Shown one piece after another: positions 33,969 to 60,062 of a DNA stretch of 64,000 nucleotides. The translations under genes were made by a program, and so were the position numbers. This DNA is from an uncultured bacterium (GTDB taxonomy: Bacteria > Patescibacteriota > Saccharimonadia > UBA4664). Every line of letters starts with the position of its first letter. Position 1 is the first letter of the stretch. Under the pieces are notes generated by a model. That model made no database searches and was not told where the DNA came from. It saw nothing but the letters and a program-made list of their open reading frames with translations. Where the stretch lies: NCBI GenBank assembly GCA_963720265.1, contig CAVRET010000002.1, positions 814,069 through 878,068 of the forward strand. The letters run 5' to 3'.

Positions 33969-34133
33969 TTATGTCAATGCCGTGCCTAAACTTTGTATAA
34001 AGCAAGCATAAGTGCCTTGGTGGGGCGTGAGGATAAGATGGCTGCCTCTTTGCCTAAGCTCGACGAAGCCACATTTCTTTAAGACTTTAACGACTTGGTC
34101 GGGCGATAGACTTGGTAGTGAGCCGTCGGGCAT
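33969..34133 (-). pseudogene. hicA toxin, 3'-truncated (diverges after SHLIL at the conserved-motif junction)
   Basis: The first 35 aa, MPDGSLPSLSPDQVVKVLKKCGFVELRQRGSHLIL, are about 85% identical to intact hicA at 43324-43560. The C-terminus is replaced by the antisense translation of the recurring motif AGCATAAGTGCCTTGGTGG (34005-34025). Confidence 0.6.
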
Positions 34134-35538: not shown

Positions 35539-35603
35539 AGAGATATTGTAGCAGGCCTTAGTATAATCTTGAGGCTACGAGCAGTAAAATAATCATAAGT
35601 GCC

Positions 35604-35909
35604 TTGGTGGGCAATGAGGCACGGCATCAGAACTTTTTGGGCGCCTCGAATGTTACCGAATTATACAATGCTTTGCAGGATTTTAAACCCAGGACCAAAA
35701 CTGAGACACGGAGGGTGCCGGCATTACAGCTATCCCCTGCTCGGCGTGGCCTCAATGTAGATAACTTGGTTGCCGACTATAATGCTGGCTGGTCTCTGCG
35801 GCAGCTGACAGACAAGCATGGTATTTGCCGGGAGACAGTGACGTTGCAGCTGCGGAAAGCCGGGGTGACAATACGACTGCGAGGTAGCAATATGCACCAT
35901 GAATGGTAA
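35604..35909 (+). CDS. repeated small HTH protein, intact copy B (101 aa)
   Basis: TTG/GTG start embedded in the conserved motif. Product ends GWSLRQLTDKHGICRETVTLQLRKAGVTIRLRG (HTH). Paralogous to 41873-42190 and to decayed copies at 38289-, 39410- and 53011-. Confidence 0.5.
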   Translation: MVGNEARHQNFLGASNVTELYNALQDFKPRTKTETRRVPALQLSPARRGLNVDNLVADYNAGWSLRQLTDKHGICRETVTLQLRKAGVTIRLRGSNMHHEW

Positions 35910-36958: not shown

Positions 36959-37046
36959 GATCCTATATTATGACAAAGCATATGGTTTGTAAATGTTCGA
37001 CAGACAAAAAAGAGACCCATGAGGATCTCCTTTTAGCATAAGTTCT

Positions 37047-37343
37047 TTGGTGGAGCTTGTCCGCCGTTACTCGAACCGCTACGACCTGCAGGAACGACTA
37101 TCAGATGCCAGGTCGGAGGCCAATCAACCGGCTGGACGAGAGCACGACGGCGACCAACCCGTCGTCAGCGGTCGAGTTCCAGGCACCTGGCGGGTGAGTG
37201 ACCGGCTGACGGACGCTGACATCCAGGTGCTCATCCGTGAGTTCCTGGCCGGTACGTCCAAGCGGGAACTAGCGGAACGATACGCAATCAGTGTGACCTC
37301 CGCGAAGAACATCCTGAGACAGCATGGCGTGAGACGCGCCTAA
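37047..37343 (+). CDS. small protein with resolvase/Hin-type C-terminal HTH (second motif-associated family)
   Basis: Starts at the TTG GTG inside a motif copy (37035-37053). The C-terminus, LTDADIQVLIREFLAGTSKRELAERYAISVTSAKNILRQHGV, is HTH_7-like. A truncated paralogue lies at 43834-43960. Confidence 0.45.
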   Translation: MVELVRRYSNRYDLQERLSDARSEANQPAGREHDGDQPVVSGRVPGTWRVSDRLTDADIQVLIREFLAGTSKRELAERYAISVTSAKNILRQHGVRRA

Positions 37344-38288: not shown

Positions 38289-38629
38289 TTGGTGGGCAAT
38301 GAGGGTTGGTATCAGAAGTTTTTGTGTGCCTCGAATGTTAGAGAATTGTACGATGCTCTGCAGGGCTTTAAGCCCCGGGCCACAAGCGAGGCACGGCGGG
38401 TGCCAGCATTGCAGCTCTCTCCCGCCCGGCGTGCACTTGATACCGACAAACTCGTCCGTGATTACAATGACGGTTGGTCACTGCGGCAGCTGGCCCGACA
38501 GAATGGGATCTGCCGAGATACGTGACGCTACAGCTCCGAAAGGCCGGGGTTAAGATTCGACCGCGAGGTAGCAATGTGAGCATAAAACAAGCAAAGAGCC
38601 GCCAGGTGGCAACTCAATGCTCCACCTAA
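38289..38629 (+). pseudogene. repeated small HTH gene, copy D, with a +1 frameshift
   Basis: Colinear with copy B, but GATACGTGACG replaces GACAGTGACG (a 1-nt insertion). This causes a premature TGA at 38525, while the HTH region continues in another frame to 38629. The 5' motif is partly deleted. Confidence 0.55.
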
Positions 38630-39260: not shown

Positions 39261-39409
39261 GGTGACCTCTTCCGGTATAGGAACTTCCTTACGGTTTGAG
39301 TATATTATAACATCGATTTTATAGAAACGTCAATTTCTATTCTTCATATCTGTACTCGAAAGGACCTTTTCGTCAAAAAGGAGAAAATACTAATTTAAAC
39401 ATAAGGGCC

Positions 39410-39731
39410 TTGGTGGGCAATGAGGCGCGGCATCAGAACTTTTGGATACCGAGACGGTCGCTGAATTATACCATGCACTGCAGAAATTTAAGCACCGGCC
39501 AATAGTGAGACGCGACGGATACCGGCTTTGCGGCTCTCCCCTGCCCGACGTGCATTAGATATTGGCAAACTCGCCGACGACTATAAAGCCGGCTGGTCTT
39601 TGCGACAGTTGGCCGATAAGAACGGTATCCACATGGAGACAGTGACACTACAACTGCGCAAAGTCGGTGTTGAGATTCGACCGCACGGATGTAGCGTACG
39701 GATTAACTCAATTAACTTAGCTCGCCGTTAA
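39410..39731 (+). pseudogene. repeated small HTH gene, copy E, with two 1-nt deletions
   Basis: The motif is intact (ACATAAGGGCCTTGGTGGG). The N-terminal third is disrupted by two single-base deletions relative to copy B. The C-terminal HTH, GWSLRQLADKNGIHMETVTLQLRKVGVEIRPHG, is still readable in ORF 39528-39731. Confidence 0.5.
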
Positions 39732-41790: not shown

Positions 41791-41872
41791 GTATCTATTA
41801 TTGTATATATAATTTTGCGAGTCAACAATTACAACAAAAACGGCAACGAGGCCGTTTTTAAGCATAAGTTCT

Positions 41873-42190
41873 TTGGTGGGCAATGAGGCACGGTATCAGA
41901 ACATCTTGGGTGCCTCGAATGTTACCGAATTATACAATGCCTTGCAGGATTTCAAACTTCGGCCCAAGGGAGAGACGCGTAGGATTCCGGCGTTACAGCT
42001 GTCCCCTGCTCGACGTGCTCTGGATGTCAGCAAGCTGGCTAACGACTACCGGGATGGCTGGTCGCTACGGCAGCTGTCCCAAAAGAACGGTATTTGTAGA
42101 GATACTGTAAGATTGCAATTGCGCAAGGTCGGGGTACGTATTCGAGCTCGAGGCAGCAATGTCCGGATTAAGCAAGTGCCAATAAGGTAG
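41873..42190 (+). CDS. repeated small HTH protein, intact copy F (105 aa)
   Basis: About 75% identical to copy B. Preceded by the motif TAAGCATAAGTTCTTTGGTGGG and the hairpin AAAAACGGC(aacgag)GCCGTTTTT at 41836-41859. Confidence 0.5.
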   Translation: MVGNEARYQNILGASNVTELYNALQDFKLRPKGETRRIPALQLSPARRALDVSKLANDYRDGWSLRQLSQKNGICRDTVRLQLRKVGVRIRARGSNVRIKQVPIR

Positions 42191-43300: not shown

Positions 43301-43323
43301 GCGTTAAGTGTAGCAAAGGGGAG

Positions 43324-43560
43324 TTATAGAAATTTTAAGAATTCGTCGATCGTTAGTTGCGCTTCCAATTCAATAATCTTTCTAAGCAATGGCTTTTTGA
43401 TGTCTTTGCCCCGGTGCATCGGCACGACCACCCGCTTGCCGGACTGTTCACTGAATAATATCAGGTGGCTGCCTTTTTGCCTGAGCTCAACAAATCCACA
43501 TTTTTTCAGAGCCTTCACGACCTTCTCAGGCGACAGGCTTGGTAATGGGCTTTCCGGCAT
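43324..43560 (-). CDS. HicA family toxin (intact)
   Basis: LPSLSPEKVVKALKKCGFVELRQKGSHLILFSEQSGKRVVVPMHRGKDIKKPLLRKII is full length with a conserved His. Confidence 0.85.
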   Translation of the reverse strand: MPESPLPSLSPEKVVKALKKCGFVELRQKGSHLILFSEQSGKRVVVPMHRGKDIKKPLLRKIIELEAQLTIDEFLKFL

Positions 43561-43784
43561 TAAATTGCAACCTGAACACGACCTTGCCAGATATGATCTT
43601 GTGGCAAATCCTTGTGCTCACTCTTCAGTGACTCAAGGTAGAGTTCGATGGCTTCGGTAATATTGACTTCTGCCTCCTCAAGTGTCTCGCCTTGACTGTA
43701 ACAGCCCGGCAAGGATGGAACAGAAGCGACAAATCCGCCTTCCGGGTCGGCTTCGTATATGACTGTATAAACCTGGGTATTCAT
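43560..43784 (-). CDS. HicB family antitoxin
   Basis: 74 aa, paralogue of 34133-34357. 1-nt overlap with the hicA start. Confidence 0.85.
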   Translation of the reverse strand: MNTQVYTVIYEADPEGGFVASVPSLPGCYSQGETLEEAEVNITEAIELYLESLKSEHKDLPQDHIWQGRVQVAI

Positions 43785-44055
43785 AGATCGATTTTACCAT
43801 AATGTGCAGCTTAGGGCCTTCATATAGCTATTAAGCATAAGTGCTTTGGTGGAGCTCGTCTGCCGTTACTGCAACCGTTACGACCTGCAGGAGCGGCTAA
43901 CGAAAGCCCGATTCAGAACGGCCAACGGCGAGAAGCGGGGCAGGTTAGTTAGGCCTTCAGTGTGAGCTCTAGGGTATCTTCCCCAGTCCGAAAATATGGC
44001 CGGGAAAATAAGCTGTCAGTACTTTAGTTCGAGCACTTACTGTAATCTTTGATTA

Positions 44056-44718
44056 ATGGCATCTTTTTTTGAGCTAATACGAGATGTGAGGCGCGGACGG
44101 CTTGTTGGCTGGACGCTCATAGCAATCGGGATATCGGGACTCTTCGGTACGAGGCTATACGCTCCCGCAACCCATGTACGAGCGCATATCGTTGAAAGCC
44201 AGGTTGTGACAAAGTCAGCGCCGAAACCAACTGTAAAGGAGGTGGCGGCTTATGCAGTGCCTCCATCTGATCCTAAGTTTATAGCGATCCCAGCGATCGA
44301 TTTAGGCAATACGCCGATACTGGCCTTTGGATTATCAGCAACCGGTACGATCGCGACCCCGAATTCGATTTATGAAACTGGTTGGTTTGACGGGAGTAGT
44401 AAACCCGGACAGGCCGGAGTGATGTTTATTTATGGACACATAGCGAGCTTTACGCCGTATAGCGTGTTTGCAAAGTTGCATATGCTCAGGCCGGGCGACG
44501 AGGTGATTATAACCAGGGGGGATAATACGATATTTCGCTACCAGGTTACAGGGTCTGAAACATACCCGTACAATGCGGTCGATATGAGCAGGGTGTTAAC
44601 TCCCGCAAGTGCGGGCATTCCAGCCTTAAACCTTATGACGTGTGCAGGGCAAATTATTACGGTTGGCGGGGTTAAAGAATACAGCCAGCGGCTAGTTATA
44701 TTTACGCAGCAGATTTAG
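44056..44718 (+). CDS. sortase (class E/F-like)
   Basis: N-terminal TM anchor. Catalytic His (MFIYGHIASF) and the Cys motif LNLMTCAG (TLxTC). Confidence 0.75.
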   Translation: MASFFELIRDVRRGRLVGWTLIAIGISGLFGTRLYAPATHVRAHIVESQVVTKSAPKPTVKEVAAYAVPPSDPKFIAIPAIDLGNTPILAFGLSATGTIATPNSIYETGWFDGSSKPGQAGVMFIYGHIASFTPYSVFAKLHMLRPGDEVIITRGDNTIFRYQVTGSETYPYNAVDMSRVLTPASAGIPALNLMTCAGQIITVGGVKEYSQRLVIFTQQI

Positions 44719-45892
44719 GCCGACGTCCGCGCACAATGGCGCATCCCGCAATAAAGCTGATTAGAGACAGGGTGGCAAGTGGAATGTTGGGATGTTGCTT
44801 TGAGACAGCGATTAGGCCAGTATCTGGAGCTTTGGGTGAGTTCGTGCCGGATGAACCAGAATTGCCAGAGCTACTACTAGCTAATACACCGGTAGTCGTC
44901 CATATGTCGCCGCCACTGACAGTCGCCGCCAGGTGGCTGCCGTCACTGGATGAAGCTATGGCGTCCCAGTTAGGTGCGCTTACTGCGGCAGTTTCGGTTT
45001 GGTCCGCCCAGGTCACCCCACCGTCGGTAGATACGTATATGTCGGTATCGATGCCTACAGCCGCTAGATGGCTGCCGTCGCTGGATGAAGCTATGGCCGA
45101 CCAGTTGGGTGAGCCAGCTGCTGTTTGATCTGTCCAGGTCGCGCCTCCATCGATGGAGGTGTAGATGTCGCCGCCACTGACAGTCGCTGCAAGGTGGCTT
45201 CCGTCGCTGGATGAGGCAATGTCCGTCCAGCTGCGCGTCCCGGCTGCAGCTTGGTCCGTCCAGGTAGCCCCGCCGTCGGTGGAGGTATAAATATCGCCAC
45301 CATTGACAGTCGCTGCTAAGTGGCTGCCGTCGCTGGACGAAGCTATGGCCGACCAGTTGCGTGTGCCAGCTGCACTTTGATCTGTCCAAGTCACACCTCC
45401 ATCGGTTGAGGTATAGATGTCGCCTCCACCAACCCCAACGGCAGTCGCTGCCAAGTGGCTGCCGTCGCTGGATGAGGCTATTGCTTGCCAGAAGCGTGAG
45501 CCAGCTGCGGCTTGATCGGTCCAGGTCACGCCTCCGTCGATGGAAGTGTAGATGTCGCCTCCGTGGACCTCAGCCGCTAAGTGGCTGCCGTCGCTGGATG
45601 AGGCTATTTCTTGCCAGCTGCGAGAGCCAGCTGCAGCTTGATCGGTCCAGATCACACCTCCATTGGTGGAGGTGTATATGTCGCCGGCACCGGAAGCATT
45701 GACGGTCGCTGCCAAGTGGCTGCCGTCACTGGATGAGGCTATGTCCGTCCAGTTGCGTGAGCCAGCTGCGGTTTGATCGGTCCAGGTATAGCCGCCGGTT
45801 GCAAGTATATTCGACGTCGATGCAAAGCTAGCAGTTAAGACACAGGCCGACAGAAAGACTCTTCGTATAATCCGATGTGGTACATGTTTCAT
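44702..45892 (-). CDS. secreted BNR/Asp-box repeat protein with C-terminal sortase sorting signal
   Basis: Signal peptide. About eight tandem ~40-aa repeats, each with IYTSTDGGVTWTDQ (SxDxGxTW BNR motif) and IASSSDGSHLAATV. C-terminal KAPDTG, a hydrophobic stretch, then RGRRPK. Confidence 0.65.
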   Translation of the reverse strand: MKHVPHRIIRRVFLSACVLTASFASTSNILATGGYTWTDQTAAGSRNWTDIASSSDGSHLAATVNASGAGDIYTSTNGGVIWTDQAAAGSRSWQEIASSSDGSHLAAEVHGGDIYTSIDGGVTWTDQAAAGSRFWQAIASSSDGSHLAATAVGVGGGDIYTSTDGGVTWTDQSAAGTRNWSAIASSSDGSHLAATVNGGDIYTSTDGGATWTDQAAAGTRSWTDIASSSDGSHLAATVSGGDIYTSIDGGATWTDQTAAGSPNWSAIASSSDGSHLAAVGIDTDIYVSTDGGVTWADQTETAAVSAPNWDAIASSSDGSHLAATVSGGDIWTTTGVLASSSSGNSGSSGTNSPKAPDTGLIAVSKQHPNIPLATLSLISFIAGCAIVRGRRPKSAA

Positions 45893-46331
45893 TTTTGTAC
45901 AAATGGTCTCCCGATAAACACTTATGGTAATTACTATAACTAAGTCCCATGGCCAGGCAAATAGGGACCGGTCCTCGCTGGCGTCTAGATGAAGCGGCTC
46001 GTTTGTCAGGACCGGCTACAGGGCCCGAGCGGCAGCGTTGCGGTCGCGTCGAGTAGAGTTTGGCGTTTTGCCTGATCTGAGGGCTCAAACGTACAGTTTT
46101 GCCAGGGAAACTCTGTGCTTTGATGCCACTGATTACGCAAAGATCCCGCCTGCTTGGGGCGGGATCTTTGGAGATACATCAAATTGGAGCGAACTTTATT
46201 TGCGTAGGGAGACGATTACGAGACCCGCAACCAGCGCGTGGCCAAGAGCTTTGAATCGCGGTTGCACGCGTTTGCGTGCCAGATAGGCATAAGTGCTTTA
46301 TTTGAGACGCCGTTTGTTTTAAGCTTGAGGC

Positions 46332-46649
46332 ATGAAATCGCAGAAGAATACAAATAGAATATTGCTATCACTCGCAGCCTTTGTGGTTACTTACGTGTTA
46401 CTAGTCCAAGATGTCAGGCTGTTGGGCTGGGGATATGTCCCGTTCGGCCTTAGCTCGACCCCATTGCATTCGAGCCTTCAAGTGGTTGTCCTCCTGGTTG
46501 TGATGGGACTCTTGACCATTAGCGTTTTTGGATTTTGCGTCTTTACCATTATTCGAAATAAGAGCGTTGCTGCTGTAGTCACGATACTGGGCATATTGGT
46601 ACTGAGCTTTGCGGTATTTGCGGGGTCATTTGCTGCCCTGACGTTCTAG
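46332..46649 (+). CDS. small polytopic membrane protein, hypothetical
   Basis: 105 aa with three hydrophobic helices. Confidence 0.35.
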   Translation: MKSQKNTNRILLSLAAFVVTYVLLVQDVRLLGWGYVPFGLSSTPLHSSLQVVVLLVVMGLLTISVFGFCVFTIIRNKSVAAVVTILGILVLSFAVFAGSFAALTF

Positions 46650-46682
46650 CGGCTCAGGAAATGACTTATCAAGGGCGGGAAC

Positions 46683-47344
46683 TAAGGAGCGGGCCTGGTC
46701 AACGTTGCCGTCGACCAGGCCCTCGCATCCTTTGCTAAGTTGTCATACCCCCCTACGGTGCCGTTGGATTACTGGCGAGGTACTCATTGATCAGAGCAGC
46801 GTACGCTGCCTGACCTTCTGCGTTGGGATGGAAGGAGTACTTCGGGTGGTCCACGTCGACATCGTTGAAGTACCCATCATCGCTACACAGGGTGTGGCCG
46901 ATGAATGGTGATCCATCCGCGTTCGCGTCTACGAACTCGAACGGAGCGCCGTACGTGCTCACTGCGCCTGAGACTGCCGCGTTGATGTCACTCTCGACGG
47001 TCTTGGCAGCATCCTGACTGGCGGTCGTTAGGTCGCCAGCGCAGGAGTTTGGCCATCCGACATCTGTAGCGGGCAGAATGTTCGGATAACCCACGACCAG
47101 GACGCGGGTGCCTGCTGACACATCCCCAGCTATGTCACCGAATAGTGTCGCCAGATCGCCAGGCAGGTAGTCATCGATGGCCGTCGTGATGTCCGCGTAG
47201 GCTGTGGTATCGGTACCACAGCCAACCTCAGGATCTACACACGAGGCGGCGAAGTCGCTGAAACCAACGTCGTCGCCGCCGACCGTCAGGATTACGTAGT
47301 CGTCACTGCTCGTGATGCCGTCGAGCTGGGTGGGCTCATCGTCC
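46683..47344. repeat. ~660-bp direct duplication, copy 1 (3' end and terminator hairpin of the SGNH-hydrolase gene)
   Basis: Identical, as far as inspected, to 50040-50701, including the hairpin GGCCTGGTCAAC(gttgcc)GTCGACCAGGCC and 197 codons. Confidence 0.75.
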
Positions 47345-47346
47345 AT
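46753..47346 (-). pseudogene. 5'-truncated duplicate of the C-terminal SGNH/GDSL domain of gene 50110-51855
   Basis: The 197-aa ORF is identical to the last 197 aa of the 581-aa protein. The N-terminal 384 codons are absent, replaced at 47345 by the IS5-fragment junction. Confidence 0.7.
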
Positions 47347-47955
47347 CCTGGGTCTTGGGCCTCACCCGGTTACGGCGGTGGGGTGAAATAAGGTCAATGC
47401 CAAGTTCTGCCAGTTTGGCGTCCAAGGGATCCGAATCATACGCCCGGTCGGCTACCAGACGTTTTGGAGTAGCTCGGGTAAGTTTGTGGGCAAGCGTTTG
47501 TTCCACCAGGGTGACTTCATGCGGAGAAGCAGAGCCCACAGTGACGGCGAGCGGAAGAGACTCTCGGTCGCAGATAACCATGAGCTTGGTACCCTTGCCG
47601 CGTTTCGTGGGGCCAACCCCAAGGCCCCCTTTTTAGCCGAAGCGAACGTACCGTCAATGAAGCACTCTTCCAGGGAGATGCCACCACGCTCTTCCATGTC
47701 CTGAGCGAGGATCTGGAGAATGGTGGCAAAGGTGCCGGAGTTAGTCCACTCCTGGAACCGCCGGTGACAGGTCTGGTAAGGTGGGTACTTGTCCGGTAGT
47801 TCATTCCACTGGGCGCCGGTCTTGAGCACCCACAGAATACCGTCAAGCACTGGTCGGTCCGGTACCCGAGGACGACCTCGTCCTGGTTTAGCTGGTTTGG
47901 GCTGTTCCAGCAGTGAAGTCAGTAACTCCCATTGCTGGTCAGTCAGTTTTTGCAT
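47336..47955 (-). pseudogene. IS5-family transposase, 3'-truncated copy with a -1 frameshift site
   Basis: OrfA-like 47452-47955 (LDGILWVLKTGAQWNELP). Continuation in the -1 frame from GCTAAAAAGGGG (about 47628-47639) gives KGGLGVGPTKRGKGTKLMVICDRESLPLAVTVGSASPHEV...ADRAYDSD. The ORF stops after PHRRNRVRPKTQDGR, without the C-terminal ~70 aa seen in copy 32401-33210. Confidence 0.7.
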
Positions 47956-47974
47956 TATTTATTTTCCTGCTTCT

Positions 47975-48172
47975 TTAGCTAGATGGTAGCAGGGTTTTTG
48001 AGATGGGTTCTAATGACATTATGATCGTCAAGATCCAACTTGGTAGCCACAGTGCCGCGACCCATCTTGATAGGGTCGATACTCCAGCATGTCTAAGGGC
48101 CAAAACTAGGCCGCAGACAAATATCAAGCCGAATACTGTTGGGAGTGCGTCAACGATCTTCTTATGCTTCAT
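47975..48172 (-). CDS. small two-TM membrane protein, hypothetical
   Basis: 65-aa hydrophobic ORF with a 4-nt overlap with the upstream membrane-protein gene. Confidence 0.3.
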   Translation of the reverse strand: MKHKKIVDALPTVFGLIFVCGLVLALRHAGVSTLSRWVAALWLPSWILTIIMSLEPISKTLLPSS

Positions 48173-48753
48173 GACCGAGCCTGTTTTGGCTTGTAAGCCA
48201 GCAGGCTAAAGCCGACGCCTACTTGCCACACGGTGAACGCAGCGGCAAATTTGACGATAGATGTGGAACTGTCTCCGTTAAGTTGTGTCCCAGCGCCGGA
48301 GGCGAGGATCCAATTCATTACGGCGGCTAAAGCTAAACCGCTTATAGCCGTGACACCAATCGCCATCAAGTTAATCTTTCGCGTGAGGAGGGAGAAGACT
48401 AGTGCCAGCACGAGCGCACCAACGACACCTGCCCGCAGCATATTACTTAGATCAGAACCGTTAGTACTATCTGATCCGTTTATGTGCATCGTGTAGGAAT
48501 GAAACGCTAAGTACCAGGCCCCAGTTGAAGCAATCAACCAAATAAATCCTTGAACTGCATCAAGCCATTTGCTTGTCACAAAGACCCAGCCTGTAGCCAC
48601 GCCAAAGAGAATCCCGGGCCCAATCCACCAAGCCCCTGGAATCATCAGGAAGGTAACCCCTGATAGTATCCCAGACGCTAAAGTGGCAACAAAGACTCTA
48701 TTGGACAGTGGATCCTTGGTAAAATGCGGCACTTTGGCTCTGGCCCGGCTCAT
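48169..48753 (-). CDS. polytopic membrane protein, hypothetical
   Basis: 194 aa with five or six hydrophobic helices. Confidence 0.45.
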   Translation of the reverse strand: MSRARAKVPHFTKDPLSNRVFVATLASGILSGVTFLMIPGAWWIGPGILFGVATGWVFVTSKWLDAVQGFIWLIASTGAWYLAFHSYTMHINGSDSTNGSDLSNMLRAGVVGALVLALVFSLLTRKINLMAIGVTAISGLALAAVMNWILASGAGTQLNGDSSTSIVKFAAAFTVWQVGVGFSLLAYKPKQARS

Positions 48754-48930
48754 AGACGAATTCTAGCATAAGGATTATAAATTCCTGGCTATTCAACTTA
48801 AGCTTATCACTCTGCTGCATGCAGCGTTATGCCCAAAACTCGTGGGGAAGAATAGCGGCTTTCTGCTCTGGAAAGAACCTGCCGCCGTTTCCGTACCAGA
48901 ATATGCAGGTTTGCCCGCGTGTCTCGGTGG

Positions 48931-49416
48931 TCATGGCCTCCGCGCGAGCGGCGAGTACATCTGGGAATGCTTCACACAGGCGGCTTCTTCGCCGTGCTTG
49001 TCAAAGCCGCACTCCGTGGCCCCGTGCCCAAAGCCGTCATGGACGGCGCGGAAGGCATCGTTGTCATCGTTGCTCAGGACGGGATGCGCGTTATCGCCCG
49101 CGGCCGTTGCCCACACCCGCAGCCGGCCTTCGCGCAGCTCGGCCAGGAGTTCGGTCACATGCCGGTACGGACCCTCGGGGGTAACCTCGACCTCGATGTA
49201 CTTGGAGAGCTGCTCGAACTGACGCCAGGTTTCCTCACGCAGTGCCTTGTATGCCGGGAGCGCCGCGCGGTCGATAATCGGAGCCGCTTGGTAGGCCCTG
49301 GCTATCGCCGCGCCGGTTGCATCACCACAACGCACCGCCGCATAGTTGATGCAGCGTACAGCCAGATTGTTCCGAATGCAGTAGTTCTCGGCTGCTATCT
49401 CAACTCGCTTGACCAT
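48931..49416 (-). CDS. hypothetical protein
   Basis: More protein-like than the overlapping + strand ORF. No RBS. Low confidence. Confidence 0.3.
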   Translation of the reverse strand: MVKRVEIAAENYCIRNNLAVRCINYAAVRCGDATGAAIARAYQAAPIIDRAALPAYKALREETWRQFEQLSKYIEVEVTPEGPYRHVTELLAELREGRLRVWATAAGDNAHPVLSNDDNDAFRAVHDGFGHGATECGFDKHGEEAACVKHSQMYSPLARRP

Positions 49417-49626
49417 GATCCGAGCTTGCGACGAGGAAAGCTCCGGCTATGGCTGACATTTGGTGCAGTGGTTGACTGGCTTAATGGTGACCGTAGAGCG
49501 GCGGCCTAAAGCAATGGGCCTAGGGGGCGTTTGAGTTCTTTGCCTCGTAGACCTCGATATCAATTGGATCATCATTCTCTTGGAGGACCCAGGCCCTCCT
49601 CGTTGGCTGGAGCCGAACTCAAATAT

Positions 49627-50034
49627 CTAGAAAGTGAATTCTCGGGAAAAATCCGCGAAGAAAGTTACCGCGAAGAACAATACGAAAATAAGAGCTGCGC
49701 ATACTAATATCCAGGCCCAGCGCTGCCAGCCTTTGAGTTTCGAAGGTGTTGATCTCGCAGCTACTATAAGTGCGCCAATAAGCGTTGATGCTGATTTCAA
49801 AATGAAGGGTATCGGTACGCCATGGCCATTGCAAAGGTTAGGGCATAGCCAAGACCCCAAAGAGTCCGCATCAACAAATATGGGCCAGGCGAGCAACACA
49901 ATGGCCAAGCACATAAATGACACTGTTTCTAGTTTATTGGGGTTCTTGCCAGGCATTCTGAGTACGAGTGTAGCATACATAAGCATTTCTTGAGGACACC
50001 GTTTGTTTAGCTCCCATGATATGAGGCTAGCCAT
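49627..50034 (-). CDS. membrane protein, hypothetical
   Basis: 135 aa with three hydrophobic helices. Confidence 0.35.
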   Translation of the reverse strand: MASLISWELNKRCPQEMLMYATLVLRMPGKNPNKLETVSFMCLAIVLLAWPIFVDADSLGSWLCPNLCNGHGVPIPFILKSASTLIGALIVAARSTPSKLKGWQRWAWILVCAALIFVLFFAVTFFADFSREFTF

Positions 50035-50039
50035 GAATT

Positions 50040-50701
50040 TAAGGAGCGGGCCTGGTCAACGTTGCCGTCGACCAGGCCCTCGCATCCTTTGCTAAGTTGT
50101 CATACCCCCCTACGGTGCCGTTGGATTACTGGCGAGGTACTCATTGATCAGAGCAGCGTACGCTGCCTGACCTTCTGCGTTGGGATGGAAGGAGTACTTC
50201 GGGTGGTCCACGTCGACATCGTTGAAGTACCCATCATCGCTACACAGGGTGTGGCCGATGAATGGTGATCCATCCGCGTTCGCGTCTACGAACTCGAACG
50301 GAGCGCCGTACGTGCTCACTGCGCCTGAGACTGCCGCGTTGATGTCACTCTCGACGGTCTTGGCAGCATCCTGACTGGCGGTCGTTAGGTCGCCAGCGCA
50401 GGAGTTTGGCCATCCGACATCTGTAGCGGGCAGAATGTTCGGATAACCCACGACCAGGACGCGGGTGCCTGCTGACACATCCCCAGCTATGTCACCGAAT
50501 AGTGTCGCCAGATCGCCAGGCAGGTAGTCATCGATGGCCGTCGTGATGTCCGCGTAGGCTGTGGTATCGGTACCACAGCCAACCTCAGGATCTACACACG
50601 AGGCGGCGAAGTCGCTGAAACCAACGTCGTCGCCGCCGACCGTCAGGATTACGTAGTCGTCACTGCTCGTGATGCCGTCGAGCTGGGTGGGCTCATCGTC
50701 C
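50040..50701. repeat. ~660-bp direct duplication, copy 2
   Basis: See 46683-47344. Confidence 0.75.
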
Positions 50702-51855
50702 ATCCCGACGATCATGTCTGCGGTCGTTGCGCCCGAGCAGGCTCTGAAGGTCGTCAGCGACAAGCCGTCGGGGCTGCCGGCGATGTCTTCGGCGTACGAC
50801 TCAGTACTGCGATCGCAGCCATCGGTGTCGGACGGTGGAATGAACCCACTTGCGGGGACACCCTCGCCTGACGAGAACGAATCGCCAAGCACCACGAATT
50901 GCTTGATTGACCAATCTGCACTCGCCACTGACGGTTCGGTGTTCGGACCAGTTGCAGTGGTGAGCTGCGTCGAACCGCCACTACTTGTCGGTATCGAGTA
51001 CACCTGCTCACCGTCGTCGTAATACAAGGTTGAACCATCCGACGACAGCCTGAGGTCGCTACCAGGGACGTCGCTGTCGTCGAGGTAATTCAGCGTTGCG
51101 TCGGTGCCGCTGAAACCGTCCGATGTGGTGTAGTACTGAATCTCGTTTGCGTACCCGGTGAAGTAGATACGAGATCCATCCGGTGACCAGACCGGATTTA
51201 TCTGGTTCTCACTATTACTGTCATCAACGACGTGGGCATTACTGCCGTCCGCGTCCATGATGTACAGCTGGTTGTTGCCGCCGGTGTTCGTTGAGTAAAC
51301 AATCTTCGAGCCGTCTGGAGACCAGCTCGGGAAATTGTTGCTCACGGAGCCCGTGCTGTCGGTGAGATCTGTCAGGTCGGAGCCGTCTGGGTGGACCTTG
51401 AAGATCTGGATGTTACCGTCAGGCCACTCGTAAGTCTCGTCCTTGGCGAAGACGATCCATTGTCCGTCTGGAGACCAGCGCGGCACGTAGTCAACCACGG
51501 AATCGTCGCCATTGTCGGTCGATGGGAAGTCGACCTGTGTCACTGCCGAACCGTCGCTGTTCATAACCTCGACAGGCTCGCTACTGCCGACGGTGCCGAC
51601 GAACGCGATCTTACTACCGTCCGGTGAGACGTCCGGATACTGGCCGGGGCCTATGTCGGTGACGGTATCGCCGGACAGCTGCTCGATCTCAGGGTTGGCG
51701 CCGGAGTAGTTCTGGAAGAACACGTCTCCGGAACTGACCGAGGCTTGGGCCGAGCCTGAAATGGCTAGGCCCGGAAGCAAGGTCAAGACTACTGACAGGG
51801 CCGCGAGCACGGCCAGGCGCAAGCGCAAGCGCCATGCTCTGGGTGTCGATGGCAC
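50110..51855 (-). CDS. secreted TolB-like beta-propeller / SGNH (GDSL) hydrolase fusion protein
   Basis: Signal peptide. Repeated SPDGSKIAF / SPDGQWIVF / SPDGSKIVYS / SPDGSRIYF (PD40-type propeller blades). C-terminal VVLGDSFSSGEG (GDSL block I) and SFHPNAEGQ (block V, DxxH). Confidence 0.7.
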   Translation of the reverse strand: MPSTPRAWRLRLRLAVLAALSVVLTLLPGLAISGSAQASVSSGDVFFQNYSGANPEIEQLSGDTVTDIGPGQYPDVSPDGSKIAFVGTVGSSEPVEVMNSDGSAVTQVDFPSTDNGDDSVVDYVPRWSPDGQWIVFAKDETYEWPDGNIQIFKVHPDGSDLTDLTDSTGSVSNNFPSWSPDGSKIVYSTNTGGNNQLYIMDADGSNAHVVDDSNSENQINPVWSPDGSRIYFTGYANEIQYYTTSDGFSGTDATLNYLDDSDVPGSDLRLSSDGSTLYYDDGEQVYSIPTSSGGSTQLTTATGPNTEPSVASADWSIKQFVVLGDSFSSGEGVPASGFIPPSDTDGCDRSTESYAEDIAGSPDGLSLTTFRACSGATTADMIVGMDDEPTQLDGITSSDDYVILTVGGDDVGFSDFAASCVDPEVGCGTDTTAYADITTAIDDYLPGDLATLFGDIAGDVSAGTRVLVVGYPNILPATDVGWPNSCAGDLTTASQDAAKTVESDINAAVSGAVSTYGAPFEFVDANADGSPFIGHTLCSDDGYFNDVDVDHPKYSFHPNAEGQAAYAALINEYLASNPTAP

Positions 51856-51960
51856 GACAATCCCTTCTCGGATTTGGTACTGCGTTTCCCAAACCCGGCT
51901 CGTGGCTCATAAATAAAGTACCGAGCCGGATATGGGAGCGCCATATGTAAGATACCAATA

Positions 51961-53373
51961 GTGCTTATCTTTATTCAAGATAAGAGCGGATCGTGGATTA
52001 CTGCAGCCTCAGGGCGTTCGTGCTCAGCAACTTGCGTTGTTCGCTTGACAATCTCCGGCCACAAGCTCGGAGACCTGCTCAGGGACCGCTACTACCTGGG
52101 TTACGTCGAGTATGACGGAATCGAGTACGCGGGCAGGCATGAGGCGCTCATCAGCCCAGAGCTGTTTGAGCGCGTCCAGAAGGTGCTGGACTCCCACTCG
52201 GGCACGGGTACGCGGACGCGGACGCATAACCACTACCTCAAGGGCGTGCTCTGGTGCGCTCGGTGTGAGCACCGCTTCATCGTGCAGCGGGCCCGCGGCA
52301 ACGGTGGCGAGTACTTCTACTTCTTCTGCCGGGGACGACAAGAGGGGCTGTGCGATGCACCGTACGTCAACGTCCATGCGGTAGAGCAAGCCGTAATCGA
52401 CCACTACGCCGCGGTCACACTCTCAGACGAGTTCAAGGAGGCTGTACGGGCAAGGCTCGATGGCGCGCTTGCCCATGATCTAGGGAGCACTCAAGCAGTC
52501 CGTGACCGGCTGGAGGCCCGGCTTGCCGCACTCGACACCAAGGAAGACAACCTGCTTGACCTGGCCGCGGACGGCGAGCTACCGAAGGAGAAGATCAGGG
52601 AGAAGCTGCGTACGATCCGAGACGAGCGTGCCAGCATTCGGCGCGATATCGAACGGCTCGACGCTGAGCTTGAGACTGGCCGTGCCGTGTTCGGGCTCGC
52701 GCTCTACCTGCTCGACGAACCGCAGGAGCTGTACCGGCAGGCCGGGCCAGCCCTGCGGAAGGCGATGAACCAAGCGATCTTTACCAGGCTCAAGCTAGAC
52801 GGCCGTGCAGTTACAGCTGATGAACTGGCTGAGCCGTTCGACGTGATCGTGCCTGCTGGTCGGGCCTACGACCGACGCACCTACCAACGTAAAAGACCAC
52901 CCGCACCGTTGAGCGGAGTGGTCTTCCACGAAGGCATCTTGGCCTATGATCTAACCTCGGCTGATCTGCTAGAACTTGGCCTAGGGGGCATTGGTTCTAG
53001 TAAGTCCGCCATGGTGGTCTTAACGATTGCTCTTCAGAACATTTCGGCCACTCAGAGGATCACTGAATTATACGATGCAGTCAAGAATTGTAAATCCCGG
53101 TCCCAGAATAAGACTCGACGAGTGCCGGCGCTTCAGCTCTCCCCTGCCCGCCGAGGACTTGATATTGATCGGCTGGCTACCGACTACCGGGCCGGCTGGA
53201 CGTTGCAACAGCTGGCCGACAAGAACGGCATCCATAAGGATACGGTAACACTGCAACTCAAGAAGGCGGGAGTCAATATTCGGCCAAGAGGAAGCAATAT
53301 GCGCGGAAAGTTAAGTTATTTTATTCCGCCGCGTAACTCCTCGGGCCGTTTTACCAGTACTACCAGTTGTTAG
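51961..53373 (+). pseudogene. large serine recombinase lacking the N-terminal catalytic domain, fused in frame to a copy of the small HTH gene
   Basis: Starts inside the recombinase domain (RDRYYLGYVEYDGIEYAGRHEALISPELF). Zinc ribbon CARCEHRF...YFFCRGRQEGLC and a coiled-coil region follow. From about 53011 (CCATGGTGG, a motif variant) the frame continues into ...RRVPALQLSPARRGLDIDRLATDYRAGWTLQQLADKNGIHKDTVTLQLKKAGVNIRPRG. Confidence 0.5.
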
Positions 53374-57896: not shown

Positions 57897-60062
57897 TTAT
57901 GCTTGATCCGGCAAACCCGATCTCATGGATAGTATGCGTTGTCCATGCTCGGCCAAAAAAGTGTTAGTATCGTCCACCGCGAAGTGGTTGCTCACCAGAT
58001 AATCAATTTGTAGCACCTTTGGAAGCAAGCTTAGATATTTGGTACCGATTAGCAAGTCGCTGAGCTCTTTTTCGTTATCGCCGAACCAATCGCCTAAGGC
58101 CTGTGATGTAATGGGTTCGTTCCGTAACGATGATAAATAGGTAACAAGATTTGGGCACGATATTGACGACTCAAAATCATCAAGTGTGATCTCCTCGCTA
58201 GTATCAGCCTTATTCCTCATCTTGAGAAAGAGACGCAGGGTTCTGTTAATTTTAGAGCCTGCAAACGTCATTAGGGTCTGCTTTTGGCCAGACGGGTTTT
58301 GTATCAAGAAGTCATCGCCGTTCGCTGTTAGGTTCTCCTTGCTCAACTTTGACAAAGCATCCTGTATAACGGGGTCGAAATAGGAGTTTATCTCCTCGAC
58401 TTCTTGGAGGCAGTGCAACATTTCGCGCCGCACTACGTGTGATATATCCCCAGCGCCCCCTCCAAATATTGGCGCTTTGCCGTCAGTCGCCGGCGTGACG
58501 TGCATCTTCTTGCTATAGGTATCAATATCTGTGATTGTCCAAACGCGAGCCGCTAAGTATACGTTCGCCCCTATGGTTGTCGCCATCGTAAGGGGCATTT
58601 CACCAATATGTTCATGGTTATTAATAACTTGGAATTCCATCTTTGCCTCAAAGTGCGCATAAAAGTCTCTTGATTCAATCGATTTTTCAGCCGCTAGTCC
58701 GGTGACATACGAGCCATCAACATCTTCAATGAAATCAATTTCCATCAAATGATCGATGACTTGCTTGATTTGGTCTCCACTTATGTCTCCCCAACAATCC
58801 AACGCATTTAGCTGCACTAATAAGTCTTGGCGAGATAGGCCGCTGTACTGTAATAGAAGAGATAGCGCTTGCTGGACGAGCACGTTATATGGCTTCTTTA
58901 TGGGCACAACCTGCTCTATAGTGCCGCGCTTGTGAAGTTCCAGGGTCGCAATGCTCTGCAATAACGACCATTCTTTGGAAGCGTACAGATGAAGGATGCT
59001 GTGATGCTTCTGTCGGCCACTTCGTCCCAGTCTCTGGGTTAACGACGCTACGGAAGGTGCGCCTTCAACTTGGGCAATGCTGTCAACTGCCCCAATATCA
59101 ATTCCTAGCTCTAAGGTCGAAGTGCAGCAGATTGTGAACAGCTGTTGTTTGGATGTTTTTGCGAACTCCTCCGCTTCCAAACGTAAATCCTTGTCTACAG
59201 ATGCGTGGTGAGCAAAGTATCTAACGTTGTTTTTCGTCCGTTTTGCCCGACGTTTCAGGCCCACCGCTATTTCTTCCACTCGACCCCGAGCGTTTGGGAA
59301 CACTAGCATGCTTTCCCTGCACGAGTAGTCGAAGATGTCATCGATAATGCCAGACGAGGTGGTGGGCCCGTCAGATTGCTCATACAGGATAGTTGTTGTT
59401 AGTTCGTTTCTGCTACTGTCGAGGAGAACACTGGCATCACGCTCGGCACCAAAAAAGTGCTTTGCGATAACATAAGAATCACGATTGAGCGTGGCGGTCA
59501 TACCAATGTAGCGCGGAGACCGTTTAGCAAGTTTACGAATTCGCCCAAGTAAAGACTTAACATGAACGCCTCTAGACGTATCCAAGAAGCTATGCAGTTC
59601 GTCAACAATGACCCACTCGGTATCGCCAAACAGAGACTGTGCCTCGCCGGGGCGACGAGTAAGCATTGCCTCAAGCGACTCAGGGGTTATTAGCAGTATC
59701 CCCTTGGGGTCTTTGAGTAAGCTCTGTTTCCGTGATCTAGACGACTCACCGTGCCAGCTTGTTACCGGGATATCTAAGTAAGCACATAATTCCGTTATCC
59801 TATCAAATTGGTCATTTATGAGCGCGATCAACGGTGATACGTAGACTATTTTTACGCCACGCGACCAGTCCTCGACCGCATTGATGGCAGGAATAAATGC
59901 AGCTTCTGTTTTTCCTGATGCAGTTGGTGCAGCTAATATTAAGTTGTTACTGCCGTCATGCGCGTGTTGGATGGCCGATTCTTGAATCTTCCGGAGCTCC
60001 GGCCACCCCTGGTCGTAGATGTACTTAACAATGTCTCGTTTGAGGAGATCTAAAACACCCAA
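57897..60062 (-). CDS. Lhr-like DEAD/DEAH-box SF2 helicase (SngC-like)
   Basis: Motif I AAPTASGKTEAA, motif II VIVDELHSF, SAT-like MTATL, motif VI QRLGRSGRQ. A long C-terminal extension of about 330 aa follows the helicase core. Confidence 0.75.
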   Translation of the reverse strand: MGVLDLLKRDIVKYIYDQGWPELRKIQESAIQHAHDGSNNLILAAPTASGKTEAAFIPAINAVEDWSRGVKIVYVSPLIALINDQFDRITELCAYLDIPVTSWHGESSRSRKQSLLKDPKGILLITPESLEAMLTRRPGEAQSLFGDTEWVIVDELHSFLDTSRGVHVKSLLGRIRKLAKRSPRYIGMTATLNRDSYVIAKHFFGAERDASVLLDSSRNELTTTILYEQSDGPTTSSGIIDDIFDYSCRESMLVFPNARGRVEEIAVGLKRRAKRTKNNVRYFAHHASVDKDLRLEAEEFAKTSKQQLFTICCTSTLELGIDIGAVDSIAQVEGAPSVASLTQRLGRSGRQKHHSILHLYASKEWSLLQSIATLELHKRGTIEQVVPIKKPYNVLVQQALSLLLQYSGLSRQDLLVQLNALDCWGDISGDQIKQVIDHLMEIDFIEDVDGSYVTGLAAEKSIESRDFYAHFEAKMEFQVINNHEHIGEMPLTMATTIGANVYLAARVWTITDIDTYSKKMHVTPATDGKAPIFGGGAGDISHVVRREMLHCLQEVEEINSYFDPVIQDALSKLSKENLTANGDDFLIQNPSGQKQTLMTFAGSKINRTLRLFLKMRNKADTSEEITLDDFESSISCPNLVTYLSSLRNEPITSQALGDWFGDNEKELSDLLIGTKYLSLLPKVLQIDYLVSNHFAVDDTNTFLAEHGQRILSMRSGLPDQA

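What the first reader, a model, noticed from the sequence alone, without database searches (positions are those of the whole stretch)
51961..53373. Catalytic-domain-less large serine recombinase fused in frame to a copy of the small HTH gene
The ORF starts inside the recombinase domain (no resolvase catalytic domain). It keeps the zinc ribbon and coiled-coil region, runs through an about 50-codon linker, and continues into a variant motif (CCATGGTGG at 53009-53017) and a full small-HTH-family coding sequence. This physically links a serine recombinase to the motif-bearing HTH gene family. It is the best clue to which enzyme acts on the motif. It may be a decayed end of the most recently integrated unit, or evidence that the HTH gene is normally the 3' partner of the recombinase gene.
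Basis: partly seen in the sequence, partly recalled or inferred. Interest (0 to 1): 0.55.

Follow-up and report, generated by a model that had tools for sequence, protein, structure and literature searches.

The report
Dead serine integrase at att junction
The ORF is the broken right end of an integrated mobile element: a serine integrase gene that lost its catalytic half and that, as in its whole clade, has no stop codon before the element boundary, so it reads across the TGGTGG recombination core into the neighbouring small HTH gene. This identifies the enzyme family that works on the repeated motif.

Summary
ORF 51961-53373 is a large serine recombinase (LSR) lacking about 245 N-terminal residues, including the catalytic domain. 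It runs in frame through CCATGGTGG into a full copy of the small HTH gene.

The "linker" is the normal C-terminal tail of this LSR clade. Of 120 homologues, at least 80 read through ...G-S-S-K-x-x-M-V into the reverse complement of a tRNA 3' end, and 5 read into an HTH. None stops earlier.

Nucleotide homology with a tRNA-Ala-integrated relative ends exactly at 53017. Homology of the HTH modules in other genomes begins exactly at TGGTGG. So TGGTGG, which mimics the tRNA CCA end, is the att core.

A TC(N)AAC motif lies 5 bp further from the core in every HTH arm than in the tRNA arm, and it mirrors the LSR-side arm. This is the published attP/attB geometry of serine integrases.

GC3 jumps at the core (LSR 0.73, HTH 0.56). 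A possible reciprocal junction (left arm, core, GC-rich HTH-B fragment) lies 9.2 kb upstream. I conclude that a decayed LSR element (43847-53017) inserted at a resident HTH site.

The protein itself is probably inactive. How the array of HTH-led units with the tRNA-Ile-trailer left arm formed is unresolved.

The parts
51961..53373 (+). The reported ORF (470 aa): 30 non-homologous codons, then a 5'-truncated LSR, then the att core, then HTH-A'.
52051..53010 (+). LSR-homologous segment, matching residues ~246-566 of intact P0017: C-terminal half of the recombinase domain, zinc ribbon, coiled coil and conserved tail ...GIGSSKSA. It is 80% nt-identical to L002 over 52064-53017. GC3 is 0.725.
52993..53041 (+). 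att site of about 49 bp. GGTTCTAG (52993-53000) on the LSR side mirrors TCAGAAC (53034-53040) on the HTH side, about the last G of TGGTGG.
   Evidence: geometry as in PMC3783163
53012..53017 (+). Core TGGTGG, identical to the reverse complement of CCA + A73 + C72C71 of a tRNA. All homology breakpoints fall here. The crossover is inferred to lie at or next to GG 53016-53017.
53011..53373 (+). HTH-A' gene (120 aa from the ATG inside the motif): a divergent member of the small HTH family. GC3 is 0.558. It is orthologue-like to the free-standing P0126 (L004) and to the L070 copy.
43835..43852 (+). L-arm + core. Proposed reciprocal (left) junction of the decayed LSR element.
43846..43965 (+). Truncated HTH-B gene (39 codons, GC3 0.74) directly after the core. 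HTH-B is the type fused to full-length LSRs elsewhere.
43847..53017 (+). Proposed decayed LSR element (9.2 kb, GC 0.56 against 0.50 and 0.48 in the flanks). It holds sortase, a BNR-repeat protein, a duplicated PD40-GDSL lipase with an IS fragment, and the dead LSR at its right end.
   Evidence: inference
34006..34023 (+). Array site: L-arm + core joined to a truncated hicA. There is no HTH here.
35593..35909 (+). Array site + HTH-A gene (101 aa).
37036..37343 (+). Array site + intact HTH-B gene (98 aa, GC3 0.69).
38290..38575 (+). Core with a degenerate or absent L-arm, followed by a frameshifted HTH-A copy.
39399..39701 (+). Array site + HTH-A copy with a 1-nt frameshift.
41862..42190 (+). 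Array site + HTH-A gene (105 aa). The 57 nt ending at the core match the tRNA-Ile(UAU) trailer of L055 (81% identity).

Best explanation
**What the ORF is.** It is a fossil junction, not a designed fusion protein.

[quoted passage not shown] These elements hold a coupling ATPase, Replic_Relax, an HTH_31/peptidase M78 pair, and the LSR at the right end. [quoted passage not shown] The LSR gene of this clade has no stop codon of its own. Its last conserved codons (G-S-S-K-x-x-M-V) are the P arm of the att site, and the reading frame runs across the core TGGTGG into whatever lies beyond.

**What lies across the core.**
- In the free element, that is a small HTH ORF (type B). Its first ~10 codons are the P' arm, and its start codon (A/TTG GTG) sits in the core in the same frame. 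attP therefore lies inside an LSR-HTH ORF.
- After integration into a tRNA, the LSR acquires a tRNA-derived tail and the HTH ORF moves to the other end of the element.

**What happened in this window.** Such an element, with a GC-rich LSR and HTH-B, recombined at the core of a resident site made of L-arm, core and HTH-A'. This produced L-arm-core-HTH-B at 43839 and LSR-core-HTH-A' at 53002. The element then decayed: the first ~245 LSR codons and the transfer genes were lost, and there was IS activity and a duplication.

**Consequences.**
- The fusion is in frame because every member of the HTH family starts in the core in the LSR frame.
- The product lacks the catalytic serine domain and cannot recombine DNA.
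- An intact LSR of this clade, acting in trans, is the most likely enzyme for the motif.

**Shown:** domain content, homology breakpoints, arm geometry, the composition jump, and the tails of the homologues.

**Inferred:** the integration event, the crossover position, the enzyme's activity on the array sites, and any role of the HTH.
For: 1. **No catalytic domain.** The recombinase domain is partial; the zinc ribbon and coiled coil are kept.
2. **Homologue tails.** Of 120 homologues, at least 80 run through GSSKxxMV into tRNA-derived peptides (ELRGFEPLTP, GDTGIEPVTSSV, GATGFEPVTPRL and others) and 5 run into an HTH. None of those that reach this region stops before the core.
3. **tRNA junction in L002.** The LSR ends in tRNA-Ala(GGC). 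T1 of TGGTGG is the tRNA 3' end.
4. **Breakpoint on the LSR side.** Window and L002 are 80% nt-identical over 52064-53017. The alignment stops at the last G of the core.
5. **Breakpoint on the HTH side.** HTH-B modules in L071, L072 and L073 are homologous from TGGTGG rightwards, with unrelated left flanks. The same holds for HTH-A/A' in L004, L069 and L070.
6. **Arm geometry.**
   - TC(N)AAC starts 23-24 nt after T1 in nearly all of the aligned HTH arms (two degenerate copies, W38282 and W43839, do not match the pattern), and 18-19 nt after T1 in the tRNA arm.
   - The LSR-side GGTT(C/G)NAG mirrors the HTH arm at equal distance. In L003 the pair is a perfect inverted repeat, GGTTGGAG ... CTCCAACC.
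   - This is the 5-bp attP/attB shift of the zinc-ribbon motif described for LI integrase (PMC3783163).
7. **Composition.** GC3 is 0.725 in the LSR, 0.69-0.74 in HTH-B and 0.56 in HTH-A/A'. L-arm-core-HTH-B(truncated) lies 9.2 kb upstream in the same orientation.
8. **Fused homologues.** LSR-HTH-B fusions occur with full-length LSRs in P0073/L003, P0087/L005 and P0080/L075.
9. **L070.** A 95-nt LSR-tail remnant precedes HTH-A' but is out of frame through a 1-nt deletion. The juxtaposition is what recurs, not the fusion protein.
10. **Motif frequency.** 6 copies against 0.06 expected, all on one strand.
Against: - No intact LSR, no tRNA and no transfer genes lie inside 43847-53017. The 'element' is therefore defined only by its two junctions and by a heterogeneous GC profile (0.48-0.64).
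- The resident target has a P'-type right arm, not a B'-type arm. The proposed event is thus formally attP x attL-like, which canonical serine integrases do not perform (PMC3783163).
- The array L-arm shows no zinc-ribbon-type motif at either spacing and no significant similarity to LSR tails.
- L070 carries the same pairing of LSR tail and HTH-A'. That fits a native attP as well as a preferred target.
- dN/dS of the truncated copy (0.13-0.16) is no higher than between two intact genes (0.17).
- The attL of the tRNA-integrated relative L002 is only a candidate.
Confidence: 0.65

Rival explanations
1. Native, unrecombined attP. LSR-core-HTH-A' is the element's own full-length integrase gene with a C-terminal HTH domain and attP inside it. 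The gene was merely truncated at its 5' end, and the element reached this place by another route.
For: - The arms are symmetric about the core, as expected for attP.
- The same pairing of LSR tail and HTH-A' occurs in L070.
- In L005 an intact LSR-HTH-B sits unrecombined inside an island whose end is a tyrosine integrase at tRNA-Gly.
Against: - GC3 drops from 0.725 to 0.558 exactly at the core. In L005, by contrast, overall GC (400-nt windows) stays at 0.65 across the LSR-HTH-B junction.
- HTH-A' groups with the low-GC resident paralogues.
- A matching L-arm-core-HTH-B junction lies upstream.
Confidence: 0.2
2. A maintained catalytic-domain-less protein (half recombinase domain, zinc ribbon, coiled coil, HTH) that binds att sites or the coiled coil of active integrases and regulates recombination.
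For: - The ORF is open for 470 codons, and dN/dS is 0.13-0.16.
- P0111 is also 470 aa, begins at the same residue (ref 246), and ends in HTH domains.
- P0053 and P0097 begin at ref 253-254 behind non-homologous leaders.
Against: - Truncation points of the other short homologues are scattered from residue 62 to 290.
- The first 30 codons are non-homologous, and the GTG start is only the first start after a stop.
- P0001 is a singleton cluster.
- The break falls inside the recombinase domain, not at a domain boundary.
- The dN/dS test has little power at dS of about 0.7-0.9.
Confidence: 0.08
3. The LSR is a bystander for the resident array. The L-arm plus core (about 30 nt, identical to the trailer and CCA end of a tRNA-Ile gene) is the identity block of a tyrosine-recombinase-type element family that accreted in tandem at tRNA-Ile. 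Alternatively it is simply the promoter or 5' region of a duplicated HTH gene family.
For: - L-arm + TGGTGGGC equals the native trailer of tRNA-Ile(UAU) between an M16 peptidase gene and the tRNA in L055, and it recurs in L058.
- Long identity blocks and tandem arrays are typical of tyrosine integrases (own knowledge).
- The L-arm has no LSR-type motif.
- HTH-A and HTH-B are distant homologues, so the shared left arm could be inherited.
Against: - There is no tyrosine integrase in the array.
- The HTH right arms carry the LSR P'-type motif at the exact mirrored distance.
- The LSR junction at 53002 and the hicA junction at 34010 both break at the core.
- A sigma-70-type promoter scan found no promoter-like site at any L-arm or motif copy, and the total number of hits was not above the shuffle expectation.
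Confidence: 0.15

Closest known systems
Actinomycete integrative and conjugative elements with serine recombinases that integrate in a tRNA gene (eight Mycobacterium AICEs in tRNA-Leu; Ghinet et al. 2011, PMC3218068)
   Same: The relatives L002, L005 and L074 are small elements with a coupling ATPase, Replic_Relax and an LSR at the end next to a tRNA 3' end. That paper calls such targeting rare.
   Different: Here many different tRNAs and tRNA fragments are used, and the junction is at the CCA end. The LSR ORF is open-ended. The window copy has lost the catalytic domain and all transfer genes, and it abuts an HTH gene, not a tRNA.
Serine integrase attP/attB architecture (Listeria LI/A118 integrase; Rutherford et al. 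2013, PMC3783163)
   Same: The sites are about 50 bp and roughly symmetric. An outer motif lies 5 bp closer to the centre in the attB-type arm (tRNA) than in the attP-type arms (LSR tail, HTH start).
   Different: The geometry is inferred from sequence only. attP lies inside coding sequence on both sides. The left arm of the array sites fits neither type.
Myxophage Mx8 intP/intX: attP inside the integrase gene, so integration changes the 3' end of int (own knowledge, not checked here)
   Same: Integration replaces the C-terminus of the integrase by host-derived sequence. The free and integrated forms encode different proteins.
   Different: Mx8 Int is a tyrosine recombinase. Here the enzyme is an LSR, the exchanged part is a whole HTH domain or ORF, and the detached part can be expressed alone from a start codon in the core.
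Tandem accretion of integrase-less elements: SCC composite islands at rlmH serviced by the LSRs CcrAB, and CIMEs next to streptococcal ICEs (own knowledge)
   Same: A head-to-tail series of short cargo units (TA systems, GNAT, NUDIX, Ham1, CAAX protease) is separated by direct repeats of the att core. Only one unit has a (dead) recombinase.
   Different: Each unit begins with its own small HTH gene, whose start codon lies in the core. The repeated left arm equals a tRNA-Ile trailer. No activity data exist.
Integron cassette arrays
   Same: Many small, functionally unrelated cargo units are separated by one recurring site in one orientation.
   Different: There is no IntI tyrosine integrase and no attC hairpins. 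Rfam found nothing in 32-56 kb. Cargo genes mostly run opposite to the site-associated gene.

Membership tests
Large serine recombinase (serine integrase) | N-terminal resolvase-type catalytic domain with the serine nucleophile | tested here: not met
   No PF00239 hit. The alignment to intact P0017 starts at about residue 246. No N-terminal fragment occurs elsewhere in the window.
Large serine recombinase (serine integrase) | Recombinase domain, zinc ribbon domain and coiled-coil insertion | tested here: met
   PF07508 (partial, profile 43-100/102), PF13408 at E 6e-11, and coiled-coil-type hits at aa 172-238. Identity to intact LSRs is 77-84% over this part. It matches phrog_95 integrase at E 1e-34.
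Large serine recombinase (serine integrase) | Short att sites with an outer (zinc-ribbon) motif 5 bp closer to the centre in attB than in attP | tested here: met
   The motif starts at +23/24 in HTH arms and +18/19 in the tRNA arm, counted from T1 of TGGTGG. The LSR-side arm mirrors the HTH arm. The rule is taken from PMC3783163. This is sequence-level evidence only.
Large serine recombinase (serine integrase) | Catalyses attP x attB recombination | not testable with these tools
   An assay is needed. The window protein lacks the catalytic domain, so none is expected.
AICE / ICE with serine recombinase | Transfer (coupling ATPase) and replication/relaxase genes in the same element as the integrase | tested here: not met
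   The relatives have them. The stretch 43847-53017 has none. A TraD-like ATPase and Replic_Relax lie 40 kb away at 7882-11389 and are only distantly related.
Integron | IntI tyrosine integrase, attI and attC hairpin sites | tested here: not met
   No tyrosine integrase among the array ORFs. No Rfam family in 32-56 kb at E<=0.1. The repeated site is a linear 24-nt arm plus TGGTGG.
Recombination directionality factor (for the small HTH) | Binds the integrase coiled coil and switches it to attL x attR | not testable with these tools
   The protein is only a generic tri-helical HTH. It gives weak HTH_58 matches in 10/10 members, and the AF2 model has mean pLDDT 67. There is no significant PDB match by sequence or fold.

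The most novel reading that the evidence does not exclude
The HTH-led units form a cassette system serviced by serine integrases. The att core sits in the start codon of a small HTH gene. In the free element the integrase is a full LSR-HTH protein, because attP lies inside its ORF. Integration cuts the HTH off: the integrase gets a junk (tRNA-derived) tail and the HTH is released as a separate gene at the other end. This would be a built-in switch that tells the element whether it is free or integrated and could set directionality. Integrase-less units carrying only the site and the HTH would then be mobilised in trans and accumulate as an integron-like array at a tRNA-Ile trailer.
Probability: 0.2. 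Interest if true: 0.8.

Novelty: new variant of a known kind. Interest (0 to 1): 0.55.

Why it matters
- **It names an enzyme family and a precise site.** The core is TGGTGG, in a site of about 49 bp, for an otherwise anonymous repeated motif. That makes the array experimentally approachable.
- **It exposes a large clade of serine integrases that target tRNA 3' ends.** At least 80 of the 120 listed homologues belong to it. This target class was described as rare for serine recombinases (PMC3218068), and the genes are systematically mis-terminated in annotation, giving 'GFEPLTP' tails.
- **Natural LSR-HTH fusions would be new if the HTH matters.** If the HTH that is joined to and split from the integrase by recombination has a function, this would be a new kind of directionality or state control for serine integrases, which are important genome-engineering tools. 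A family that recognises the universal acceptor/T-arm end of tRNAs could also be useful as a broad-host integration tool.

Tried and rejected
- **tRNA scan.** ARAGORN found no tRNA in the window. The core is not part of a local tRNA gene.
- **Genome-wide scan for the 18-mer motif.** It gave 62 hits. By my rough estimate this is about the number expected by chance, and the window's genome was not found. Only L055 and L058 (tRNA-Ile trailer) were informative. A Desulfobulbales repeat sharing the 18-mer is unrelated.
- **L-arm as an LSR-tail remnant.** Local alignment of the 80 nt left of each array core against LSR tails was no better than shuffles. This idea was dropped, and with it the claim that site 38282 is a second clear LSR insertion.
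- **L-arm as a sigma-70 promoter.** No enrichment.
- **Circularity of L003 (LSR-HTH-B).** No terminal overlap.
- **Function of the HTH.** Pfam, PHROGs, PDB sequence search, AF2 and Foldseek gave only a generic HTH.
- **More HTH-A loci.** The metagenome scan gave 2 loci and the viral scan none. The family is rare: 7 homologues.
- **Taxonomy of the window.** Exact-sequence look-ups carry no names.
- **attL of tRNA-integrated relatives.** L002 gave only a candidate. In L074 the left end lies outside the locus.
- **dN/dS as a pseudogene test.** Uninformative at this divergence.
Full report
**1.

ORF 51961-53373(+) exists and encodes 470 aa from a GTG. Pfam finds the following:
- the distal half of the Recombinase domain (aa 34-77);
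- the recombinase zinc ribbon (aa 93-149, E 6e-11);
- coiled-coil-type matches (aa 172-238);
- a weak HTH (aa 403-448);
- no resolvase catalytic domain.

Against the intact homologue P0017 (588 aa), the alignment begins at about residue 246. No N-terminal piece is found anywhere else in the window. The last 120 residues, from the ATG at 53011, belong to the small HTH family that also occurs at 35604, 38289, 39411 and 41873 (tblastn E 1e-18 to 2e-31). The motif GCATAAGTGCCTTGGTGG with up to 3 mismatches occurs six times, always on the + strand, against 0.06 expected. The variant GTAAGTCCGCCATGGTGG sits at 53000-53017.

**2. The 'linker' is the native tail of an open-ended integrase gene.**

A search of 5.8 billion proteins returned 368 relatives. 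The close ones (77-84% identity, 576-650 aa, with Resolvase + Recombinase + zinc ribbon) align through the supposed linker to a conserved ...LALGGxGSSKxxMV. After that they diverge into peptides such as ELRGFEPLTPSM, GDTGIEPVTSSV and GATGFEPVTPRL. These peptides are translations of the reverse complement of tRNA 3' halves.

In L002 the LSR P0017 ends inside tRNA-Ala(GGC). The T of ...CA TGGTGG AGCTGAGGGGATTCGAACC is the last base of the tRNA, whose CCA is encoded. By pattern count, at least 80 of the 120 listed homologues have such tails and five have an HTH tail. The five are the window's ORF plus P0073, P0080, P0087 and P0111. None of those that reach this region stops before the motif. The clade therefore integrates at tRNA 3' ends, and its gene is terminated by whatever lies across the junction. 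Serine-recombinase AICEs in a tRNA gene have been reported for Mycobacterium and called rare (PMC3218068).

**3. TGGTGG is the breakpoint on both sides.**

- *LSR side.* blastn aligns window 52064-53017 with L002 10749-11693 at 80% identity. The alignment stops at the last G of TGGTGG.
- *HTH side.* The HTH-B module (core, HTH-B, MT-A70 methylase, HicB-like; 1.45 kb) is shared by three metagenomic loci. Homology starts at the T of TGGTGG in L072 versus L073, and two bases later in L071 versus L072. The left flanks are unrelated.
- *HTH-A and HTH-A'.* The same is true in L004 (free-standing), L069 and L070.

In the window, two kinds of left arm meet at the core: the 24-nt 'L-arm' and the LSR tail. 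They join several kinds of right arm: HTH-A, HTH-A', HTH-B and a truncated hicA.

**4. The arms have serine-integrase geometry.**

Counting from T1 of TGGTGG, a TC(N)AAC(C) motif starts at +23/24 in nearly all of the HTH arms examined. These include window A', A and B, and the arms in L003, L004, L005, L069, L070, L072, L073, L075 and L076. Two degenerate copies, W38282 and W43839, do not match the pattern. In the tRNA arm the motif starts at +18/19, where it is the T-loop.

On the other side, the LSR tail carries GGTT(C/G)NAG at the mirror distance. In L003 the two arms form GGTTGGAG-33 nt-CTCCAACC, centred on the last G of the core. Rutherford et al. showed for LI integrase that the zinc-ribbon motif lies 5 bp closer to the centre in attB than in attP, at half-site bp 11-19 versus 16-24 (PMC3783163).

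By that rule:
- LSR-core-HTH is attP-like (two P-type arms);
- LSR-core-tRNA is attR (P + B');
- the first ten or so codons of the HTH genes are a P' arm.

In three full-length relatives attP thus lies inside one long LSR-HTH-B ORF: P0073/L003, P0087/L005 and P0080/L075. P0111/L076 shows the same arrangement but is itself 5'-truncated. The fusion frame is not obligatory. L070 has a 95-nt LSR-tail remnant followed by HTH-A' that is out of frame through a 1-nt deletion.

**5. What happened in this window.**

GC3 is 0.725 in the LSR part and 0.558 in HTH-A'. The other HTH-A copies have 0.56, while both HTH-B copies have 0.69-0.74. The junction at 53017 therefore joins DNA of two origins.

Upstream by 9.2 kb, and in the same orientation, lies L-arm-core-HTH-B, truncated to 39 codons. 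HTH-B is the type fused to full-length LSRs elsewhere.

The simplest reading is this. A circular element with attP = LSR-core-HTH-B recombined at the core of a resident site L-arm-core-HTH-A'. That gave the two junctions now at 43839 and 53002. The element then decayed. Its present content is as follows:
- sortase;
- a BNR-repeat protein;
- a 666-bp perfect duplication of the PD40-GDSL lipase 3' end around an IS fragment;
- loss of the LSR 5' part.

Weak points:
- the target has a P'-type arm, so the event is not a canonical attP x attB reaction;
- the interior GC is heterogeneous;
- the second HTH-B unit (37040-38289) cannot be shown to end in an LSR remnant.

**6. The resident array.**

Units of 1.1-3.6 kb each begin with core + HTH gene on the + strand. 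They carry mostly minus-strand cargo:
- hicAB;
- a GNAT acetyltransferase;
- BrnT;
- NUDIX;
- a CAAX protease;
- Ham1;
- PIN/AbrB;
- an IS200-type TnpA.

The units end with the L-arm. The L-arm plus TGGTGGGC is identical to the native trailer and CCA end of tRNA-Ile(UAU) in L055 (M16 peptidase, then terminator, then L-arm, next to the tRNA). It recurs in a Saccharimonadia MAG, L058. The HTH-A start also looks like the tRNA-Ile 3' half with five extra bases.

So the array sites look like attL sites (tRNA-Ile trailer + core + P'). I cannot explain why the same trailer is repeated at every unit. Three possibilities remain:
- units whose own site is L-arm-core-HTH, mobilised in trans;
- a tyrosine-type identity block;
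- duplication.

No intact recombinase of either kind is in the window.

**7. What the protein does.**

Without the catalytic domain the ORF cannot recombine DNA. Its start is arbitrary, since the first 30 codons are non-homologous. dN/dS against intact relatives (0.13-0.16) is no higher than between two intact genes (0.17). At dS of about 0.7-0.9, however, this cannot detect a recent inactivation.

One oddity keeps a functional reading alive. P0111 has the same length, the same first homologous residue and HTH tails. P0053 and P0097 begin within eight residues of that point.

The HTH is a generic tri-helical domain. It gives weak HTH_58 matches in 10/10 members. The AF2 model has mean pLDDT 67, with about 85 over the HTH. 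There are no significant PDB matches. Its role (accessory att binding, directionality or regulation) is not established.

**8. Verdict.**

The thing itself is a fossil, which is ordinary. It does reveal two things worth following up:
- a tRNA-end-targeting serine integrase clade with open-ended genes, whose attP lies inside an LSR-HTH ORF;
- an HTH-led cassette array of unexplained origin.

I rate it a new variant of a known kind, with interest 0.55.

Noticed in passing
window 34006-43852; L055:1828-1951; L058:4244-4261: The 24-nt left arm of the motif plus TGGTGGGC is identical to the trailer and CCA end of tRNA-Ile(UAU) in an unclassified bacterium (L055, between an M16 peptidase gene's terminator and the tRNA). 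It recurs in a Saccharimonadia MAG (L058), where the tRNA body is replaced after TGGTGGGCCT.
   Followed up: partly
window 46683-47348 and 50040-50705: A 666-bp perfect direct duplication of the 3' end of the PD40 + GDSL-lipase gene. It brackets an IS5-like transposase fragment (47452-47955) and several small ORFs. A PD40/GDSL lipase also neighbours HTH modules in L004, L072 and L073.
   Followed up: partly
window 7882-11389: A TraD/TrwB-like coupling ATPase (872 aa) followed by a Replic_Relax protein. This is the same module that precedes the LSR in L002, L005 and L074, but it is only distantly related (33-43% in tblastx) and lies 40 kb from the dead LSR. The whole 1-22 kb stretch has GC of about 0.6.
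   Followed up: partly
window 34033-34374 and 43324-43801: Two hicA/hicB toxin-antitoxin copies (78% nt identity). The first hicA is cut off by the motif junction at 34018, a core-adjacent rearrangement without an HTH gene.
   Followed up: partly
proteins P0001, P0111, P0053, P0097: Four independent N-terminally truncated homologues begin their homology at P0017 residue 246-254, just before LRDRYYLGY, behind unrelated leader sequences. P0001 and P0111 are both 470 aa and both end in HTH.
   Followed up: partly
L071:200-1607, L072:10056-11524, L073:7093-8540: A 1.45-kb unit (core, HTH-B, MT-A70 methyltransferase, HicB-like protein, terminal hairpin) is shared by three metagenomic loci with different flanks on both sides. 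Downstream lie variable defence-type genes (AAA_21, ThsB-TIR, type I R-M, HATPase_c_2).
   Followed up: partly
L074:11697-11745: The LSR P0009 reads into a ~45-nt tRNA 3' fragment, not a complete tRNA (ARAGORN finds none). The clade apparently also sits next to tRNA-end remnants.
   Followed up: no
L005:10001-13632: An intact LSR-HTH-B ORF is followed directly by an HTH_17 excisionase-like gene and a tyrosine integrase overlapping tRNA-Gly(GCC). Two integration modules sit back to back at one island end.
   Followed up: partly
L007, L010, L011, L014, L019, L022, L026, L030, L032, L035, L049-L051, L054, L056: A repeat in Desulfocapsa, Desulforhopalus and Thermodesulfobacteriota MAGs contains the same 18-mer (…CCGGCATAAGTGCCTTGGTGGTA…) within a conserved element of about 100 nt. 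It looks unrelated to the window's system.
   Followed up: no
window 44900-45800: Tandem 126/135-nt repeats (7 or more copies, 65-81% identity) lie inside the 396-aa BNR/Asp-box repeat protein gene (44702-45892, minus strand), next to a sortase gene.
   Followed up: no
window 3734-3798 and 4580-4644: A perfect 65-nt direct repeat flanks the ORF at 3739-4542.
   Followed up: no
window 57897-63592: A BrxD-like ATPase (E 8e-49), a DEXH helicase and a 733-aa protein lie on the minus strand. This is a BREX-like or other defence cluster to the right of the array.
   Followed up: no
window ~51855 (L001): An independent Logan assembly of run ERR11523669 begins its 36-kb contig 106 nt upstream of the ORF start. 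This suggests an assembly break or population variation at the left edge of the LSR fragment.
   Followed up: no
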